Below, piece by piece: positions 19,488 through 25,744 of a stretch of 52,850 bases of DNA (the stretch's first letter is position 1; each line of letters starts with the position of its first letter). The notes under the pieces were generated by a model, which worked only from the letters and a program-made list of their open reading frames with translations, did not search any database and had not been told where the DNA came from. The position numbers were made by a program, and so were the translations under genes. Source of the stretch: Patescibacteria group bacterium (lineage in GTDB: Bacteria > Patescibacteriota > Saccharimonadia > CAILAD01 > BJGX01); the NCBI GenBank assembly GCA_030917065.1, contig JAUPVL010000033.1:1-52850 (forward strand), in the 5' to 3' direction.

Positions 19488-20000
19488 CTAATGCATTACA
19501 ACACTATCAAATAAGGCTAATTCTTCGCCGTCTGGTGCTTCAAAAACTTTTGCAAATGCTTCTATTTGTTCACGACTGACTGGTGCATGCCCATGGCCTT
19601 TACTAGCGTTACGAACTTCAAGCCTTTGTATAAGTTCGCTAAGTGGCACCCTTAAGTAATGCAGTTCTGTACTTACGCCAAGGCTTTTTGCATCATGTCG
19701 TTTGTCATCTCGCTCACTACGAGTCCATAATCCGTTTTCTAGGATTACAAGCTGGCCATTCTTTAATAATTCCTTGGCCAGCTCCCAAAGACGGCCTTGC
19801 AACATCCGATGTAACTCTTCGTCGTTCAAATCAACGCCCAAATCAGCCTGCCATTCGTCAGTGTTAAGTCGTACCGCATGATATTTCTTCGCTAGCTTTC
19901 TTGCCAGAGTAGTTTTGCCAGAACCTGGTAGGCCACAAAATAATACTAATTTTGGCTTAGTATTGTCTGTAACTTTTTTGCGTTGCAAACTAACGTCCAT
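19488..20000 (-). CDS. P-loop NTPase / small-molecule-kinase-like protein (AAA_33-like)
   Basis: This 170-aa protein has Walker A GLPGSGKTT at residues ~23-31, then LNTDEW and VILENGLW (Walker B-like). Its start lies 6 nt after the GNAT stop. Confidence 0.6.
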   Translation of the reverse strand: MDVSLQRKKVTDNTKPKLVLFCGLPGSGKTTLARKLAKKYHAVRLNTDEWQADLGVDLNDEELHRMLQGRLWELAKELLKNGQLVILENGLWTRSERDDKRHDAKSLGVSTELHYLRVPLSELIQRLEVRNASKGHGHAPVSREQIEAFAKVFEAPDGEELALFDSVVMH

Positions 20001-20006
20001 AAGTAC

Positions 20007-20507
20007 TTAGCTTTTGGTTAGGTCTTTGAAGTAATGGACTATAGGAATACCTACATACCCAGCTTTTTCATAAGACCGTCTCGCAGGTGCGTGCGTAGGG
20101 TCGCCGCCCGTGCCAATCTTAGCGATTTTCATTCCAGCCTTCTTCATTTTATCAAGGGCAAATAGGTTCAGTTCGGTGCCAATTCCTTTTCCTGAATAAG
20201 AGGGGTGCACTGCAAGCAAGTAAACCTCGCCCAACTTTTCCTTATGGTCAAGCTTCAATGCAAAGAAGCCCACTACCACACCTTCCAGCTCAGCCACCCA
20301 AACCTTGAATTTACGGCTCTTACATGCTTCTTCAACAGTTTTTTGCTGCATTTTCTTCCAGTTTGGATGCAGCAATTTGTCTATGTCAGAGCCAACAATA
20401 TCCTTAAAAGAAGTGAAAAATGGCTCCCAGGCAAGTAATGACAGGCTTACAACGCTGTCCAAATCCTGGTACTTGAAGCTTCGAATTTTAGTCTTTCGTG
20501 CCGTCAT
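20007..20507 (-). CDS. GNAT family N-acetyltransferase
   Basis: The acetyl-CoA binding core reads LLAVHPSYSGKGIGTELNLFALDKMKKAG...SYEKAGY. ATG 20507 overlaps the erm stop (ATGA), while the ORF is open from 20519. Confidence 0.75.
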   Translation of the reverse strand: MTARKTKIRSFKYQDLDSVVSLSLLAWEPFFTSFKDIVGSDIDKLLHPNWKKMQQKTVEEACKSRKFKVWVAELEGVVVGFFALKLDHKEKLGEVYLLAVHPSYSGKGIGTELNLFALDKMKKAGMKIAKIGTGGDPTHAPARRSYEKAGYVGIPIVHYFKDLTKS

Positions 20508-21418
20508 AAATCCCGCCAATCTTTGGCGGTTCTTGTTCTATGTACCTTTTCCATTTTCTGTTGCTGCTGTTTCTGCTGAGCCTTGGCACCCCGAACAAGT
20601 TGCTGCTTTTCCTCAATAACGCCGACCATGAAATACTTAAACAAGCCAAGCCACTGCTCAAACCCAAGTTCAGTTGGAGTGGCTTTAAGGTCAAAGTGCA
20701 GTTCTCTTGCCAGCCGCTTGAACTGGTTATGGGTAAATATGTCTTCAAGCCCTTTTCTTAGGCTCGCTTTCTTGGTATTAAAGGAGTATACAATAAAATC
20801 ACTGTAGACAGGTCGCTCCACGGCTTTGACCAATGGGGCTGGTAGTTTTCTCACTCTCAACAAAACAACTTCTACTGCAGGGGCGGGCTGAAAATCAGTC
20901 TTACTAAACTTGTGAGCCTCCGAAAACTCAAACCAGGGCTTTGTAAGAACAGAAAACTGAGTTTCTTGACCACCATAAGGCTTACCTGCCAATTTCATAG
21001 CTGCCTCTTTTTGGACAAAAAGGTAGCTATCATCTGGCGGGTTATCGGCTTCAACCAGCTTCCTCACAATGTCGGCCGTGATATTAAATGGTATGTTAGA
21101 AAATATCTTATAGGGCTGACTAGGCAAGCTCTGGTCTAAGAAGTTGCCCCTAATTATCTTCACATTATCAGAGTTGTTAAAGTTCTCGTTCAGGTTGTCA
21201 ATCAATCTACTGTCCGCTTCTACAGCAACAACCTGTTTGCAATACTTGGTTAGCTCGGCAGTTATCACGCCAGTTCCTGAGCCAATCTCATACACTGTAT
21301 CAGCCGAGGTAATTGATGATTTGTCTAAAAGCTTAGCAACCAAACCTGGGCTTTTTACGAAGTTTTGGGAATACTTTATGCTTGAGCGAGGCTCATCTAG
21401 TTTCTTTTTTATGTCCAT
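20504..21418 (-). CDS. erm: Erm-family 23S rRNA (adenine-N6)-methyltransferase with Gln-rich C-terminal extension
   Basis: Similarity to remembered ErmB/ErmC sequences runs along the full length:
- IKYSQNFVKS vs IKYSQNFLTS.
- DTVYEIGSGTGVITAEL vs DTVYEIGTGKGHLTTKL.
- QPYKIFSNIPFNITADIVRKL vs [21 protein letters not shown].
- FQPAPAVEVVLLRV vs FHPKPKVNSVLIKL.
- FTHNQF vs FTKNQF.

About 45 extra C-terminal residues follow (EEKQQLVRGAKAQQKQQQQKMEK...). Confidence 0.8.
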   Translation of the reverse strand: MDIKKKLDEPRSSIKYSQNFVKSPGLVAKLLDKSSITSADTVYEIGSGTGVITAELTKYCKQVVAVEADSRLIDNLNENFNNSDNVKIIRGNFLDQSLPSQPYKIFSNIPFNITADIVRKLVEADNPPDDSYLFVQKEAAMKLAGKPYGGQETQFSVLTKPWFEFSEAHKFSKTDFQPAPAVEVVLLRVRKLPAPLVKAVERPVYSDFIVYSFNTKKASLRKGLEDIFTHNQFKRLARELHFDLKATPTELGFEQWLGLFKYFMVGVIEEKQQLVRGAKAQQKQQQQKMEKVHRTRTAKDWRDL

Positions 21419-24140: not shown

Positions 24141-24167
24141 TGTTAAGTTATAAAGGAGTAAACTATT

Positions 24168-25679
24168 ATGAAAAAGGCTAAACTAATACTAATTTCGAGA
24201 GTATCTGATGTTGAGCAGCGTAAGGCGTTGCCAGCACAGAAACTTCGACTAGAAAATTATGCAAAAGAATTGGGCTACCTGCCTAAAGAATATGAATACT
24301 ACGAATTTGACGAGAGTGCATATAAAGATGACCGTCAAAAGTTCTCGCTATTGATAGAAGAGAAAATAAAAACATTAGACGACTTTGCCATAATCGCCTT
24401 CGACAAAATTGACCGCTTTACCCGTGACGCTTCTCAGCAAGAGGTACGTACAGTAGGTAGCTTAGTTGAAAAAGGCAAGATTGAGCTTCACTTTCCGTCA
24501 GACAATTTGTTCATCACGAAAGATTCACCTGCGACTGACCTATTTAGACTTGGTATAGGCATGTTACTAGCCAAATACTATTCAGATTCAAGCAGGGATA
24601 ATGTGAAACGACGTTTTGACCAGATGCTAAATGACGGCATATGGGTACATAGAGCACCTATAGGCTATAAGAACGTTAACAATGGCACGCCTCAAAAGCC
24701 GATAAAGGATATTGAAATCGACACGGAACGTGCACACTACATTGTCAAAGCCTTTGAAATGCGAGCTCAAGGCATACCTTACGAGGTTATTGCCAGAGAG
24801 TTAGTTAACAATGGTTTTGCCAGTAGGCGTGCTGGGGCTAAACCGCCAAACAAGTCGTTTATTGAGCGAATTCTCAACAACAAGTTTTACTATGGCGTGA
24901 TGGTTCACAAGGGCATAGAGTATCCTCATGAATATGAGCCGCTTATAAGCCGTGCCTTGTTTAACCAATGCCAAGCAGTCAAAAAAAAGCGAAAGCACGA
25001 TAAGACAAAATATGACAGCAAAGACTATACTTTCAAAAAGATTGTGAAGTGTGGCAAATGCGGGCGTGCAGTATCGCCATTCAAAAGCCGTAATACGGTT
25101 TACTTACGCTGTGCAAGCGGTGGTAAGTGTGGTAACCCTAATACTGCCGAAAGCCTTGTTATAGACGGTGTATCCGCTGATGTGAGCAACTTTGACGTGC
25201 CTACGGAATGGCTGGCTAAAGTTATTAACGAGCTGCGTAATAGACATGATAACCAACAACTGTACTACACAAAGAATATTGAACAAACTCGTGCAGAGTA
25301 CGACAAAATCAAAGAAAAACTCAAGCTACTCTACTATGACCGCATAGAAGGGCGTATTACTAAACAGTTTCATGACGAAATTGCAAATGAGCTAGAAGCA
25401 AAGCAGCAATCTTTGAATGATAGCCTCAAAATGCTAACAAGTGACAATAAGAACTTCCAAGTCACTGCTTCCTATCTGTTAGACTTGGCACAGCGTGCCG
25501 AAGAACTTTTCAATGAGAGCGATGAAGCCTTACAGCAGAAGCTATTAGAATATGTACTTTCAAACATTGAATTAAACGACAAAAAGCTGTCTTATTTACT
25601 AAACGACCCCTTTAGAACCATAGTTGAAACAAAGGAAAAAGCCCTTTCGGGCTCTAATAATAACATTTGGTGCGGGTAG
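24168..25679 (+). CDS. large serine recombinase (integrase)
   Basis: The protein has the parts expected of a large serine recombinase:
- An AAGGAG SD precedes the start.
- The resolvase catalytic domain reads LISRVSDVEQ with FDKIDRFTRD.
- The recombinase domain reads HRAPIGYKNV.
- The zinc ribbon reads CGKCGRAVS...YLRCASGGKCGNP.
- A long C-terminal coiled coil follows.

The last codons (tgg tgc ggg tag) overlap the 3' end of tRNA-Gly. Confidence 0.85.
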   Translation: MKKAKLILISRVSDVEQRKALPAQKLRLENYAKELGYLPKEYEYYEFDESAYKDDRQKFSLLIEEKIKTLDDFAIIAFDKIDRFTRDASQQEVRTVGSLVEKGKIELHFPSDNLFITKDSPATDLFRLGIGMLLAKYYSDSSRDNVKRRFDQMLNDGIWVHRAPIGYKNVNNGTPQKPIKDIEIDTERAHYIVKAFEMRAQGIPYEVIARELVNNGFASRRAGAKPPNKSFIERILNNKFYYGVMVHKGIEYPHEYEPLISRALFNQCQAVKKKRKHDKTKYDSKDYTFKKIVKCGKCGRAVSPFKSRNTVYLRCASGGKCGNPNTAESLVIDGVSADVSNFDVPTEWLAKVINELRNRHDNQQLYYTKNIEQTRAEYDKIKEKLKLLYYDRIEGRITKQFHDEIANELEAKQQSLNDSLKMLTSDNKNFQVTASYLLDLAQRAEELFNESDEALQQKLLEYVLSNIELNDKKLSYLLNDPFRTIVETKEKALSGSNNNIWCG

Positions 25680-25744
25680 GGAGACTCTAACTCCCGGCCT
25701 CATCCTTGGCAAGGATGCGCTCTAAACAACTGAGCTATACCCGC
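25668..25744 (-). tRNA. tRNA-Gly (GCC), non-canonical D-loop/T-loop
   Basis: The reverse complement reads gcgggta-ta-gctc-agttgttta-gagc-g-catcc-ttGCCaa-ggatg-aggcc-gggag-ttagagt-ctccc-tacccgc-a-cca. All four stems are perfect. The D-loop lacks GG (G18 U19) and the T-loop has A at position 56. Confidence 0.8.

What the first reader, a model, noticed from the sequence alone, without database searches (positions are those of the whole stretch)
19488..25744. Compact integrative element ending inside tRNA-Gly, combining a serine recombinase, a gene II/X-like Rep and a SpoVG-like protein
**Seen in the sequence**
- A 503-aa large serine recombinase has a resolvase catalytic SRVSD, a recombinase domain, a Cys4 ribbon and a coiled coil.
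- It is the last gene before a convergent tRNA-Gly.
- Its final four codons (tgg tgc ggg tag, 25668-25679) are the complement of the tRNA's CCA end and 3' acceptor strand.
- Upstream on the same strand are a 237-aa orphan, a 69-aa orphan, a SpoVG homologue and a 375-aa protein whose N-terminus and RYEVRF motif recall rolling-circle gene II/X initiators.
- Divergent from these is a four-gene overlapped cargo operon.
- The tract sits in a nest of five tRNA genes.

**Inferred**
This is an integrated, possibly replicative, small mobile element in a reduced genome of a type usually thought poor in such elements. The pairing of a serine integrase with a gene II/X-type Rep and SpoVG is not a module I can name.

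**Limit**
The left junction cannot be set from sequence alone. Serine recombinases leave only a 2-bp core, and I found no repeat of the tRNA 3' end.
Basis: partly seen in the sequence, partly recalled or inferred. Interest (0 to 1): 0.75.

Follow-up and report, generated by a model that had tools for sequence, protein, structure and literature searches.

The report
Saccharibacteria tRNA-targeting island with split integrase
This is a real 6.6-kb mobile DNA island, apparently undescribed and common in the tiny parasitic Saccharibacteria, that inserts at the tip of a tRNA gene, carries antibiotic-resistance-type genes, and cuts off the last 36 residues of its own integrase each time it integrates.

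Summary

- **Boundaries.** The element spans window 19087-25673 (6.6 kb), not 19488-25744. A 6-bp repeat, TGGTGC, matches the tRNA-Gly 3' end and marks both junctions. Other strains of the same host match the window up to base 19093, then diverge.
- **Conserved module.** It comprises an HTH_17/excisionase-like gene, a variable orphan, orf69, a 38-codon ORF, a SpoVG-like gene, a 375-aa Rep and a large serine integrase. All 59 related loci checked keep SpoVG-Rep-Int, apart from a few gaps. All but one come from Saccharibacteria or unclassified MAGs. The integrase always abuts a tRNA: Gly, Trp, Asn or Asp.
- **Cargo.** It varies between copies: metal resistance, type III restriction-modification and antibiotic-resistance-type genes. 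Here it is Erm, GNAT and a P-loop kinase.
- **Rep.** Relatives pass Pfam's threshold for the gene II (G2P/Phage_CRI) domain. The window's protein does not.
- **New finding.** attP lies inside the integrase reading frame. Integration leaves a conserved 36-residue C-terminal coding piece at the opposite end of the element. It is under purifying selection. Only the excised circle or a tandem array encodes full-length integrase.
- **Prior work.** I found no published description.
- **Untested.** Circular forms, replication and the transfer route.

The parts
19087..19092 (.). attL core TGGTGC, identical to the last 6 nt of tRNA-Gly read on the + strand. This is the left junction of the element.
   Evidence: Found. 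Contigs L076, L078 and L079 from other samples match the window up to base 19093 and then diverge. The same core followed by a conserved left end occurs in 25 related loci.
19087..19203 (+). Detached 3' piece of the integrase gene (WC-KICDALQTAAVDAQNDYNLKHLVEQFNLAGNLLTER*). It joins in frame to the integrase only in the excised circle or in a tandem array.
   Evidence: Translation. In all 26 delineated elements this stretch is open in the integrase frame and encodes a conserved 33-40 aa peptide. Codon-position entropy is 0.48/0.41/1.00 bits and the other two frames stop early. Database integrases carry this tail in one piece: P0391, P0411, P0416.
19204..19487 (.). Non-coding left-end region with a hairpin at 19223-19266. 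It may be a terminator or a single-strand origin; its function is unknown.
   Evidence: Fold z-score -2.1; 4 of 200 shuffles fold as well.
19488..20000 (-). Cargo: P-loop kinase (AAA_33 / zeta-toxin-like).
   Evidence: Pfam AAA_33, E 1.7e-27.
20007..20519 (-). Cargo: GNAT acetyltransferase.
   Evidence: Pfam Acetyltransf_1, E 1.3e-14.
20504..21418 (-). Cargo: Erm-type 23S rRNA adenine methyltransferase.
   Evidence: Pfam RrnaAD, E 7.6e-52. NCBIfam Erm23S_rRNA_broad scores 229 bits against a cut-off of 212.
21393..21629 (-). HTH_17 / MerR-like 'excisionase family' DNA-binding protein. It is a conserved core gene, divergent from the Rep-Int operon, and a candidate regulator or directionality factor.
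   Evidence: Pfam HTH_17, E 6.3e-11. NCBIfam TIGR01764 'excise' scores 29.2 against a cut-off of 28.8. Present in every related locus whose contig reaches that far.
21658..22371 (+). orf237. It occupies a variable first slot of the core operon, which holds 192-655 aa proteins in relatives. Function unknown.
   Evidence: No Pfam, PHROG or NCBIfam hit. Only some relatives hold a homologue in this slot.
22463..22672 (+). orf69, a conserved small protein (motif ...FFDVLIQMDFAQKQRNE...). Function unknown.
   Evidence: tblastn hits in nearly all loci; alignment.
22626..22742 (+). orf38, a conserved small hydrophobic/basic ORF overlapping the orf69 end and the SpoVG start.
   Evidence: Translation; conservation. 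Source annotations-47 aa genes at this position in L001, L003 and L090.
22739..23050 (+). SpoVG-like protein (103 aa).
   Evidence: Pfam SpoVG, E 1.8e-5, nearly the whole profile (positions 1-78 of 82), below the gathering score. 23 relatives match at E<=1e-3, best 8.2e-9.
23013..24140 (+). Rep (375 aa), a divergent member of the gene II / G2P (Phage_CRI) rolling-circle initiator family. The candidate catalytic Tyr182 sits in the motif FYDK, followed by the RYEVRF motif.
   Evidence: The family has 1045 clusters at 50% identity. Invariant residues are D3, T4, E75, S77, K80, E89, K131, N132, Y182, K184, R223, E225 and R227. 14 of 62 members hit Phage_CRI. P0201 and P0267 score 24.3 and 27.6 bits against a cut-off of 21.7. 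The AF2 model has pLDDT 83. BFVD hits reach E 1e-7.
24168..25679 (+). Large serine integrase in its integrated (truncated) form, 503 aa. The last codons cross attR into the antisense strand of tRNA-Gly.
   Evidence: The AF2 model of the full-length relative P0391 shows the catalytic, recombinase, zinc-ribbon and coiled-coil domains, all upstream of the att core.
25668..25673 (.). attR core TGGTGC; right junction of the element.
25668..25744 (-). tRNA-Gly(GCC), the target gene. It is left intact by the insertion.
   Evidence: ARAGORN. The same tRNA flanks the integrase in about 35 related loci.

Best explanation
Window 19087-25673 is an intact copy of a family of 6.5-12 kb site-specific integrative elements of Saccharibacteria.

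**Shown**
- The large serine integrase has recombined an element site (attP) with the last 6-8 bp of a tRNA gene. Here that gene is tRNA-Gly(GCC).
- attP lies inside the integrase reading frame, 36 codons before its stop.
- Integration therefore leaves a 503-aa integrase that ends in antisense tRNA sequence. The conserved 36-residue C-terminal coding piece is moved to the far left end of the element.
- Only the excised circle, or the upstream member of a tandem array, encodes the 538-aa protein.
- Cargo is carried on the opposite strand behind a conserved HTH_17/excisionase-like gene. It differs between copies: metal resistance, type III restriction-modification, or antibiotic-resistance-type genes. 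Here it is Erm, GNAT and a P-loop kinase.

**Inferred**
- After excision, the gene II/G2P-type Rep nicks an unidentified origin and drives rolling-circle replication or single-strand transfer of the circle.
- The SpoVG-like protein acts as a nucleic-acid-binding accessory or regulator.
- The HTH_17 protein acts as regulator or directionality factor.
- Gain and loss of the integrase tail makes integrase properties depend on whether the element is free or integrated.
- The route between cells is unknown. Candidates are natural transformation, the chromosomal type IV secretion system and a helper phage.
For: - **Family and synteny.** Rep has 679 or more homologues by the word-indexed search. By exhaustive profile search it has 1045 clusters at 50% identity. 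All but one of the 53 genome loci come from Saccharibacteria or unclassified MAGs. Almost all 59 loci keep SpoVG-like, Rep and Int. Where the contig reaches that far they also keep HTH_17. Int abuts tRNA-Gly, -Trp, -Asn or -Asp on the opposite strand.
- **Junctions.** L004 differs from L005 by a tandem insertion whose ends are the 8-bp tRNA-Trp terminus TGGCAGGG. The window's attL, TGGTGC at 19087, is followed by a left end conserved in 25 other loci. Three contigs from other samples match the window up to 19093 and then carry different DNA.
- **Split integrase.** The in-frame tail is conserved in 26 of 26 delineated elements. Third-codon-position entropy is twice that of positions 1 and 2, and conservation stops at the stop codon. 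One-piece full-length integrases exist in databases and at tandem or attP-type junctions: P0391, P0411, P0412, P0416, P0460, and loci L052, L088, L090.
- **Rep.** Phage_CRI hits in 14 of 62 members, two above the gathering score, cover the invariant Y182 and R223-E225-R227. Structural matches to unnamed viral proteins reach E 1e-7.
- **Cargo census.**
Against: - No circular copy was seen. The only attP-type junctions found lie in a tandem array or on contigs too short to tell.
- No empty tRNA-Gly site was found for this host, only an alternative occupant.
- The window's own Rep does not reach any Pfam, PHROG or NCBIfam model.
- The Rep model has no significant match to solved structures. The correspondence of Y182 to the gene II catalytic tyrosine was not verified.
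- No origin or nick site was identified.
- The tail is modelled with pLDDT below 50, so its role is unknown.
- Composition does not differ from the flanks.
Confidence: 0.72

Rival explanations
1. The element is an integrative mobilizable element. Its Rep acts as a conjugative relaxase and hands the nicked strand to the chromosomal monoderm-type type IV secretion system of Saccharibacteria. Replication would be secondary.
For: - Rolling-circle initiators have been recruited as relaxases elsewhere. The MOBT relaxases of Firmicutes ICEs are an example, and streptococcal IMEs combine serine integrases with novel mobilization proteins (PMC5357655, PMC5704250).
- The element encodes no transfer apparatus of its own.
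Against: - No coupling-protein gene and no oriT were identified.
- The family's only profile link is to phage gene II replication initiators, not to any MOB class.
- The cited survey favours a non-conjugative role for the T4SS.
- Co-occurrence of Rep and the T4SS was not tested.
Confidence: 0.2
2. The element is a defective or satellite filamentous-phage-like (inovirus-type) prophage. The gene II-type Rep, a single-strand-binding analogue (SpoVG-like) and small hydrophobic proteins (orf69, orf38) would be remnants of a virion module or dependent on a helper.
For: - Phage_CRI is the gene II family of filamentous phages and plectroviruses.
- The best structural matches are viral proteins.
- Small ORFs lie next to Rep in a conserved order.
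Against: - No element protein scanned, in the window or among ten slot-1 relatives, matched any profile for a morphogenesis ATPase (pI/Zot-type) or an adsorption protein.
- tblastn of Rep against 50,697 phage records finds nothing.
- Only one relative occurs in 2.9 million IMG/VR contigs.
- Half of each element is adaptive cargo.
Confidence: 0.08
3. The element is a fixed, no-longer-mobile genomic island. It would be inherited vertically beside tRNA-Gly, with the recombinase now serving another role. The conserved left end would reflect DNA-level site conservation rather than coding.
For: - Most copies sit beside the same tRNA-Gly.
- There is no compositional shift.
- No empty site or circle was found.
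Against: - Left flanks and cargo differ between species.
- Four different tRNA targets track four integrase clades.
- The site is polymorphic within the window's own host population. It is also polymorphic between L004 and L005.
- The 105-nt conservation of the left end has codon periodicity and ends at a stop codon. It extends far beyond a roughly 25-bp integrase half-site.
- All core ORFs are intact.
Confidence: 0.05

Closest known systems
Integrative and mobilizable elements (IMEs) of Firmicutes that combine a serine integrase with a rolling-circle-type mobilization or replication protein (PMC5357655, PMC5704250)
   Same: - A small (under 15 kb) element with its own site-specific integrase.
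- A single rolling-circle-type initiator or relaxase.
- No transfer apparatus of its own.
- Resistance-type cargo.
   Different: - The Rep belongs to the gene II/G2P (Phage_CRI) lineage, not to a recognised MOB family.
- The host is a reduced-genome episymbiont phylum.
- The integrase gene is split by integration.
- A SpoVG-like gene is part of the core.
- Mobilization is unproven.
Tycheposons of Prochlorococcus (bioRxiv 10.1101/2020.12.28.424599)
   Same: - Cargo-carrying elements in streamlined genomes.
- Integration at specific tRNA genes, with integrase clades that track the tRNA targeted.
- Replication genes on board.
- Tandem copies, and decayed remnants such as fragmented integrases, accumulate next to the tRNA.
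   Different: - Tycheposons mostly use tyrosine recombinases and primase/helicase/polymerase-type replication genes, and they leave partial tRNA repeats.
- Here the recombinase is a large serine integrase and the repeat is only 6-8 bp.
- The replication gene is a rolling-circle initiator.
- No homology between the two groups was shown.
SSV-type 'suicidal' tyrosine integrases of archaeal viruses and plasmids (PMC7253208)
   Same: attP lies inside the integrase ORF, the target is a tRNA gene, and integration partitions the integrase gene between the two ends of the element.
   Different: - Those are tyrosine recombinases, split into two inactive pseudogenes.
- Here a serine integrase loses only a 36-residue C-terminal extension. 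All catalytic and DNA-binding domains stay in one piece, so the integrated copy may remain active.
Integration-dependent immunity of mycobacteriophages, where attP lies inside the repressor gene and integration removes a C-terminal degradation tag (recalled from memory, Broussard et al. 2013; not checked here)
   Same: Integration changes the C-terminus of an element protein, so the protein's properties report the integrated or free state.
   Different: There the affected gene is the repressor and the recombinase is a tyrosine integrase. No degradation-tag function has been shown for the tail here.
Gene II / CRI / RstA-type initiators of filamentous phages (Pfam PF05144)
   Same: Family members pass the Pfam threshold over the region that holds the invariant Tyr and acidic or basic residues.
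   Different: There is no virion or morphogenesis genes. The element integrates by its own serine integrase. The window's protein itself falls below detection by the Pfam model.

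Membership tests
Large serine recombinase (serine integrase) | N-terminal resolvase-type catalytic domain with the active-site serine | tested here: met
   Pfam Resolvase, E 2.6e-11, residues 8-150. The motif RVSD is at residues 11-14, and S12 is invariant in 38 homologues.
Large serine recombinase (serine integrase) | Recombinase domain followed by a zinc-ribbon domain with an embedded coiled coil | tested here: met
   Pfam Recombinase, E 1.1e-12. Zn_ribbon_recom scores 24.6 bits, just below its 25.3 cut-off. Four invariant Cys are present. The AF2 model of the relative P0391 shows long antiparallel helices at 342-436 between zinc-ribbon strands.
Large serine recombinase (serine integrase) | [quoted passage not shown] | tested here: met
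   The junctions share 6-8 bp only: TGGTGC here and TGGCAGGG at tRNA-Trp. Enzymatic activity is not testable with these tools.
Gene II / G2P rolling-circle initiators (Pfam Phage_CRI, PF05144) | Match to the family profile above its gathering score | tested here: inconclusive
   The window's protein has no hit. Of 62 family members at 27-66% identity to it, 14 hit the profile (best E 1.2e-8). P0201 and P0267 score 24.3 and 27.6 bits against a cut-off of 21.7. Membership therefore rests on transitive homology.
Gene II / G2P rolling-circle initiators (Pfam Phage_CRI, PF05144) | Catalytic tyrosine and metal-binding acidic residues; site-specific nicking at an origin | not testable with these tools
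   An invariant Y182 (FYDK), together with D3, E75, E89 and E225, is compatible with this feature. Its equivalence to the gene II active site was not verified, and no origin was found.
SpoVG | Match to the SpoVG profile over its full length | tested here: inconclusive
   The window protein scores 25.2 bits against a cut-off of 29.6, with profile coverage 1-78 of 82. 23 relatives match at E<=1e-3. It is a divergent branch of the fold, not the septation-regulator orthologue (NCBIfam 19 bits, cut-off 108).
Integrative and mobilizable element (IME) | Own integration/excision module and no conjugation apparatus | tested here: met
   An integrase and an excisionase-family HTH gene are present. No T4SS component was detected among the element's proteins.
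Integrative and mobilizable element (IME) | oriT and a relaxase that use a helper's conjugation pore | not testable with these tools
   Rep is a candidate only. No MOB-family match and no oriT were identified.
Inovirus-type prophage | Morphogenesis ATPase (pI/Zot-like) and coat or adsorption proteins | tested here: not met
   No such domain was found in any element protein in the window or in ten slot-1 proteins of relatives. Rep has no match in the phage records.
SSV-type split ('suicidal') integrase | attP inside the integrase ORF, so that integration splits the gene | tested here: met
SSV-type split ('suicidal') integrase | Tyrosine recombinase of the SSV family | tested here: not met
   The enzyme is a serine recombinase. 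It resembles the SSV type in architecture only.
Erm 23S rRNA methyltransferase (cargo) | Score above the NCBIfam Erm family cut-off | tested here: met
   Erm23S_rRNA_broad scores 229.1 bits against a cut-off of 212. A resistance phenotype was not tested.

The most novel reading that the evidence does not exclude
Two readings remain open, and they may both hold.

1. The Rep family, with over 1000 clusters at 50% identity, could be the 'very different relaxase' missing from Patescibacteria. These islands would then be the natural substrates of the phylum's orphan type IV secretion system.
2. The detachable 36-residue integrase tail could be a built-in directionality switch. Full-length protein, made only by the free circle, would favour integration. 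The truncated protein, made by the integrated copy, would have different excision competence or stability.
Probability: 0.2. Interest if true: 0.9.

Novelty: new variant of a known kind. Interest (0 to 1): 0.74.

Why it matters
- **Gene exchange in a reduced phylum.** Saccharibacteria and other CPR bacteria are usually described as poor in mobile elements, and how they exchange genes is unclear. This family is abundant, has exact ends, and carries metal-resistance, restriction-modification and antibiotic-resistance-type genes. It is therefore a concrete vehicle for adaptation in these episymbionts.
- **A possible genetic tool.** The integrase with its reconstructed attP and attB sites is a ready candidate for site-specific integration at tRNA-Gly in a phylum that has only recently become genetically tractable.
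- **An unreported arrangement.** I found no earlier report of a serine integrase whose own C-terminus is removed and restored by integration and excision. It offers a natural test case for how serine-integrase directionality or stability can be tied to the state of the element.
- **A testable candidate.** The Rep family gives a candidate for the relaxase missing from the patescibacterial type IV secretion system.

Tried and rejected
- **Direct profile searches of Rep.** Pfam, PHROGs and NCBIfam returned nothing.
- **Rep against solved structures.** Two profile searches by sequence found only chance-level hits. Foldseek of the AF2 model against the PDB gave nothing below E 1e-3, and the pT181-type RepD/RepDE structures were not among the 50 matches listed. 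I therefore dropped my initial idea that the FYDK...RxExR motifs place it in the Rep_trans family.
- **Rep against known replicons.** tblastn against phage and plasmid collections found nothing meaningful.
- **HUH motif.** The HIH at residues 171-173 is not conserved in the wider family, so I rejected it.
- **Longer repeat of the tRNA end.** A search for TGGTGCGGG with one mismatch found no match inside the tract. The real repeat is only 6-7 bp.
- **Window's own att sites in metagenomes.** A degenerate pattern covering attB, attP, attL and attR found 0 matches, which suggests the source contig itself is not in that collection.
- **Generic Gly-type attP junction.** The scan returned two short contigs that cannot show circularity.
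- **Flanking FolD gene.** Its contigs are the same strain, or short contigs that break at tRNA genes.
- **IMG/VR.** One relative only (L070); not followed.
- **Slot-1 proteins such as orf237.** No family match, and homology is detectable among only some of them.
- **Integrase tail structure.** In the AF2 model of a full-length integrase the tail has pLDDT below 50, so nothing can be said about where it docks.
- **Integrase against PDB sequences.** No hit at E<=1e-3.
- **Literature.** Eight searches found no description of this element family or of a serine integrase split by integration.

Full report
**1. The observation**

- A 503-aa ORF at 24168-25679 (+) matches Pfam Resolvase (E 2.6e-11) and Recombinase (E 1.1e-12). 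It matches Zn_ribbon_recom at 24.6 bits, just under the 25.3 cut-off.
- The same ORF matches the PHROG integrase family phrog_95 at E 1.4e-62.
- ARAGORN finds tRNA-Gly(GCC) at 25668-25744 on the minus strand.
- The integrase's final codons TGG TGC GGG TAG are the reverse complement of the tRNA's ...CCCGCACCA end.
- Upstream on the same strand lie a 237-aa and a 69-aa ORF without family matches.
- Next comes a 103-aa ORF that matches Pfam SpoVG over nearly the whole profile (positions 1-78 of 82), below the gathering score (25.2 vs 29.6 bits).
- Then comes a 375-aa ORF at 23013-24140 without any direct profile hit.
- The divergent operon encodes four proteins:
  - an HTH_17/MerR-type protein that passes NCBIfam's 'excisionase family' domain model (29.2 vs 28.8 bits);
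  - an Erm-type 23S rRNA methyltransferase (NCBIfam 229 vs 212 bits);
  - a GNAT acetyltransferase;
  - an AAA_33 P-loop kinase.
- Base composition does not set the tract apart from its flanks.

**2. A recurrent module in Saccharibacteria**

- The 375-aa protein has at least 679 homologues in the word-indexed protein collection. The few that carry names come from Candidatus Saccharimonadales.
- An exhaustive profile search finds 1045 clusters at 50% identity with E<=1e-3, and 435 with E<=1e-30.
- Contexts were taken from six metagenomic loci and 53 loci in species-representative genomes. All but one come from Saccharibacteria or unclassified MAGs.
- These contexts show one conserved arrangement:
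  - a divergent HTH_17 gene;
  - a variable first gene of 192-655 aa with no Pfam match;
  - the orf69 homologue;
  - the SpoVG-like gene, for which 23 correctly extracted relatives match Pfam SpoVG at E<=1e-3;
  - Rep;
  - a 495-545 aa serine recombinase.
- Wherever a tRNA gene was found beside the integrase, in 43 of the 59 loci, the integrase ends at or inside its 3' end on the opposite strand.
- The tRNA is Gly(GCC) in most loci. It is Trp(CCA), Asn(GTT) or Asp(GTC) in others.
- Integrase similarity tracks the tRNA. Identity to the window's integrase is:
  - 59-77% for Gly-type;
  - 60-63% for Trp-type;
  - 39-51% for Asn- and Asp-type.

**3. The junctions**

- L004 and L005 come from the same host. 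They are identical up to the integrase end, apart from one substitution, and then differ by a 7-kb insertion.
- All three junctions there carry TGGCAGGG, the last 8 nt of tRNA-Trp.
- The left junction of the first element carries the same octamer next to host DNA.
- That left end continues as ...CATCGCTGACGCATTACAAACGGCAGCA.
- Nearly the same sequence follows a TGGTGC hexamer at window 19087: TCTCTAAT|TGGTGC|AAGATATGCGACGCATTACAAACGGCCGCA.
- A search for this left-end motif located the left junction in 25 other loci. Element sizes come out at 6.5-12.4 kb.
- The window's element therefore spans 19087-25673. The three genes at 16907-19028 lie outside it.
- Independent confirmation comes from three contigs from other sequencing runs. 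They carry the window's left flank at 99.95-100% identity up to base 19093, then diverge into unrelated DNA encoding a YaaC-family protein.
- The site is therefore polymorphic in the window's own host population, exactly at the predicted core.
- I did not find an empty site or a circular copy.

**4. The integrase gene is split by integration**

- Aligning the left ends of 26 elements shows about 105 conserved nucleotides after the core. Variation is concentrated at every third position, and conservation ends at a stop codon.
- Read in the frame set by the integrase's TGG TGC, every element encodes a 33-40 residue peptide. The consensus is WC-xIVDAFQTAAIxAQEDYKLKHLVEQFQLSGNLI*.
- In the window the peptide is WC-KICDALQTAAVDAQNDYNLKHLVEQFNLAGNLLTER*, at 19087-19203.
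- Mean entropy per codon position is 0.48, 0.41 and 1.00 bits. The other two frames stop early.
- This is the signature of purifying selection on a coding sequence. A roughly 25-bp integrase half-site would not explain it.
- attP therefore lies within the integrase ORF:
  - the free circle encodes a 538-aa protein;
  - the integrated copy encodes 503 aa plus whatever the antisense tRNA supplies. That is one residue here, and 18 residues at tRNA-Trp. In L003 the frame reads through both tRNA-Gly and tRNA-Phe.
- One-piece full-length integrases with the tail exist in public data. Examples are P0391 (535 aa), P0411 (530 aa, a cluster of 184 sequences), P0412, P0416 and P0460.
- They also occur at tandem or attP-type junctions (L052, L088, L090).
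- An AF2 model of P0391 places all canonical serine-integrase domains upstream of the core. It models the tail only at low confidence.
- The truncated protein is thus structurally complete. The role of the tail remains open.
- Short ORFs made of an integrase 3' fragment plus tail lie between cargo blocks in other contigs (L081, L084, L085). They look like scars of decayed tandem copies.
- Asn-type tandem junctions carry a different in-frame continuation. It resembles the left end of the second element in L004, so the design may extend to related element families.

**5. Rep**

- The AF2 model is confident (pLDDT 83, pTM 0.76). It shows a beta-rich N-terminal domain and a helical C-terminal domain.
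- It has no significant match in the PDB (best E 7e-3, TM 0.14). I therefore dropped the idea of a pT181-type Rep_trans fold.
- Against predicted viral structures it matches three unnamed proteins, with E 1e-7 to 2e-3 and TM up to 0.47.
- In a 62-sequence alignment spanning 27-66% identity, the invariant residues are D3, T4, E75, S77, K80, E89, K131, N132, Y182, K184, R223, E225 and R227. The HIH at 171-173 is not conserved.
- When each member is scanned against Pfam, 14 of 62 hit Phage_CRI (PF05144, 'Replication-associated protein G2P N-terminal'). The best E is 1.2e-8, and no other family recurs beyond chance.
- Two members examined in detail score 24.3 and 27.6 bits against a cut-off of 21.7. 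The matched residues, about 64-232, correspond to the part of the window's Rep that contains the invariant Tyr and the RxExR motif.
The window's own sequence stays below detection.
- No relative was found in 50,697 phage or 72,556 plasmid records. Only one was found in IMG/VR.

**6. Cargo**

- I scanned 148 ORFs between the left end and the HTH_17 gene in 24 delineated elements. The commonest families were:
  - cation-efflux transporters (10);
  - DUF305 and DUF4142 (7 each);
  - CsoR-type metal-sensitive repressors (7);
  - P-type ATPases (6);
  - N6_N4 DNA methylases with ResIII helicase-nucleases (5 each, type III restriction-modification);
  - HTH regulators;
  - short-chain dehydrogenases;
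  - methyltransferases;
  - AAA_33 kinases;
  - BacA.
- The window's Erm, GNAT and kinase trio fits this pattern of accessory, resistance-type genes.

**7. Mechanism: what is shown and what is inferred**

- Shown:
  - site-specific insertion at tRNA 3' ends, with a 6-8 bp shared core;
  - exact boundaries;
  - population-level polymorphism at the site;
  - tandem accretion;
  - a split integrase gene under selection;
  - a conserved core module and variable cargo.
- Inferred:
  - excision to a circle, which selection on the joined ORF requires but which was not observed;
  - rolling-circle replication or strand transfer by Rep;
  - nucleic-acid binding by the SpoVG-like protein;
  - a regulatory or directionality role for HTH_17;
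  - a state-dependent function for the integrase tail.
- The transfer route is unknown.
[quoted passage not shown] This makes the Rep family a candidate worth testing, but I have no evidence linking the two.

**8. Comparison with known systems**

- The closest functional analogues are the small serine-integrase IMEs of Firmicutes (PMC5357655, PMC5704250).
- Tycheposons of Prochlorococcus are also close. They share tRNA targeting, integrase clades that track the tRNA targeted, cargo, replication genes and accretion of copies next to the tRNA in a streamlined genome.
- The split-gene architecture parallels the SSV-type 'suicidal' tyrosine integrases of archaea (PMC7253208). Here, however, it involves a serine integrase and removes only a C-terminal extension.
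- Eight literature searches found no description of this family or of a serine integrase split by its own integration. The library is incomplete, so a prior description cannot be excluded.

**9. Verdict**

- The element is best classed as a new variant of a known kind: a tRNA-targeting integrative, probably replicative or mobilizable, island.
- Two features are worth follow-up: the self-splitting serine integrase gene, and a large, uncharacterised gene II-like Rep family confined, as far as sampled, to Saccharibacteria.

Noticed in passing
window 22626-22742 (+): A 38-codon ORF (MVLYKIIQKILRIQINLALSCFSWASKREKAVKKRKRV*) overlaps the end of orf69 and the start of the SpoVG-like gene. The stretch is conserved in relatives, where source annotations-47 aa genes.
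   Followed up: partly
L004 12643-19695: A second element without Rep is inserted in tandem at the same tRNA-Trp end. It has a 570-aa serine recombinase, carries its own tRNA-Ile(TAT) gene at 16006-16081, and holds several zinc-ribbon proteins.
   Followed up: partly
L076, L078, L079 (align to window 16849-19093): Other samples hold the window's host flank at 99.95-100% identity, but with a different occupant at the same attachment site. That occupant starts with a YaaC-family (PF14175) gene and lacks the conserved left-end motif.
   Followed up: partly
L081 8629-9036; L084 1357-1725; L085 10001-10351: ORFs of 116-135 aa consist of an integrase 3' fragment fused to the tail and sit between cargo blocks. 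They are probably scars of decayed tandem elements, so islands seem to grow by accretion.
   Followed up: partly
window 16829-19086: Three genes lie between tRNA-Val and attL: a 173-aa orphan, a possibly gamma-glutamyl-cyclotransferase-like 192-aa protein (judged by eye; no PHROG or NCBIfam match, Pfam not run) and a transglutaminase-like 301-aa protein. In L033 the element's attL abuts tRNA-Val directly, so this segment might be older accreted material.
   Followed up: no
window 19223-19266: An imperfect hairpin lies about 20 nt after the stop codon of the integrase tail (DNA fold z-score -2.1). It could be a terminator or a single-strand origin.
   Followed up: partly
att regions of many loci; weaker in window 19102-19117: A WTTCAAAY motif recurs in direct orientation at three places: just left of the core, 15 nt right of it, and about 20 nt after the tail's stop codon. 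It may be a binding site for an accessory protein.
   Followed up: no
L003 11167-12801; L089 344-1936: Integrase ORFs read through the antisense strand of one or two tRNA genes. This gives spuriously long proteins (544 and 530 aa) that mimic the full-length form in length only.
   Followed up: yes
L070 (IMG/VR UViG_3300006147_000596) 132-2897: This is the only IMG/VR contig with a Rep relative (313 aa, 34% identity). The Rep is followed by a 530-aa ORF, and no tRNA was found in the 10.9 kb of the 20.5-kb contig that were fetched.
   Followed up: no
L022 and L060 (both MAG JAYRRP01); L063: One MAG carries two family members: one next to tRNA-Gly and a divergent one (Rep 42% identical) with no adjacent tRNA found. 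One locus (L063) is binned as Ignavibacteriaceae, which is probably a binning error.
   Followed up: no
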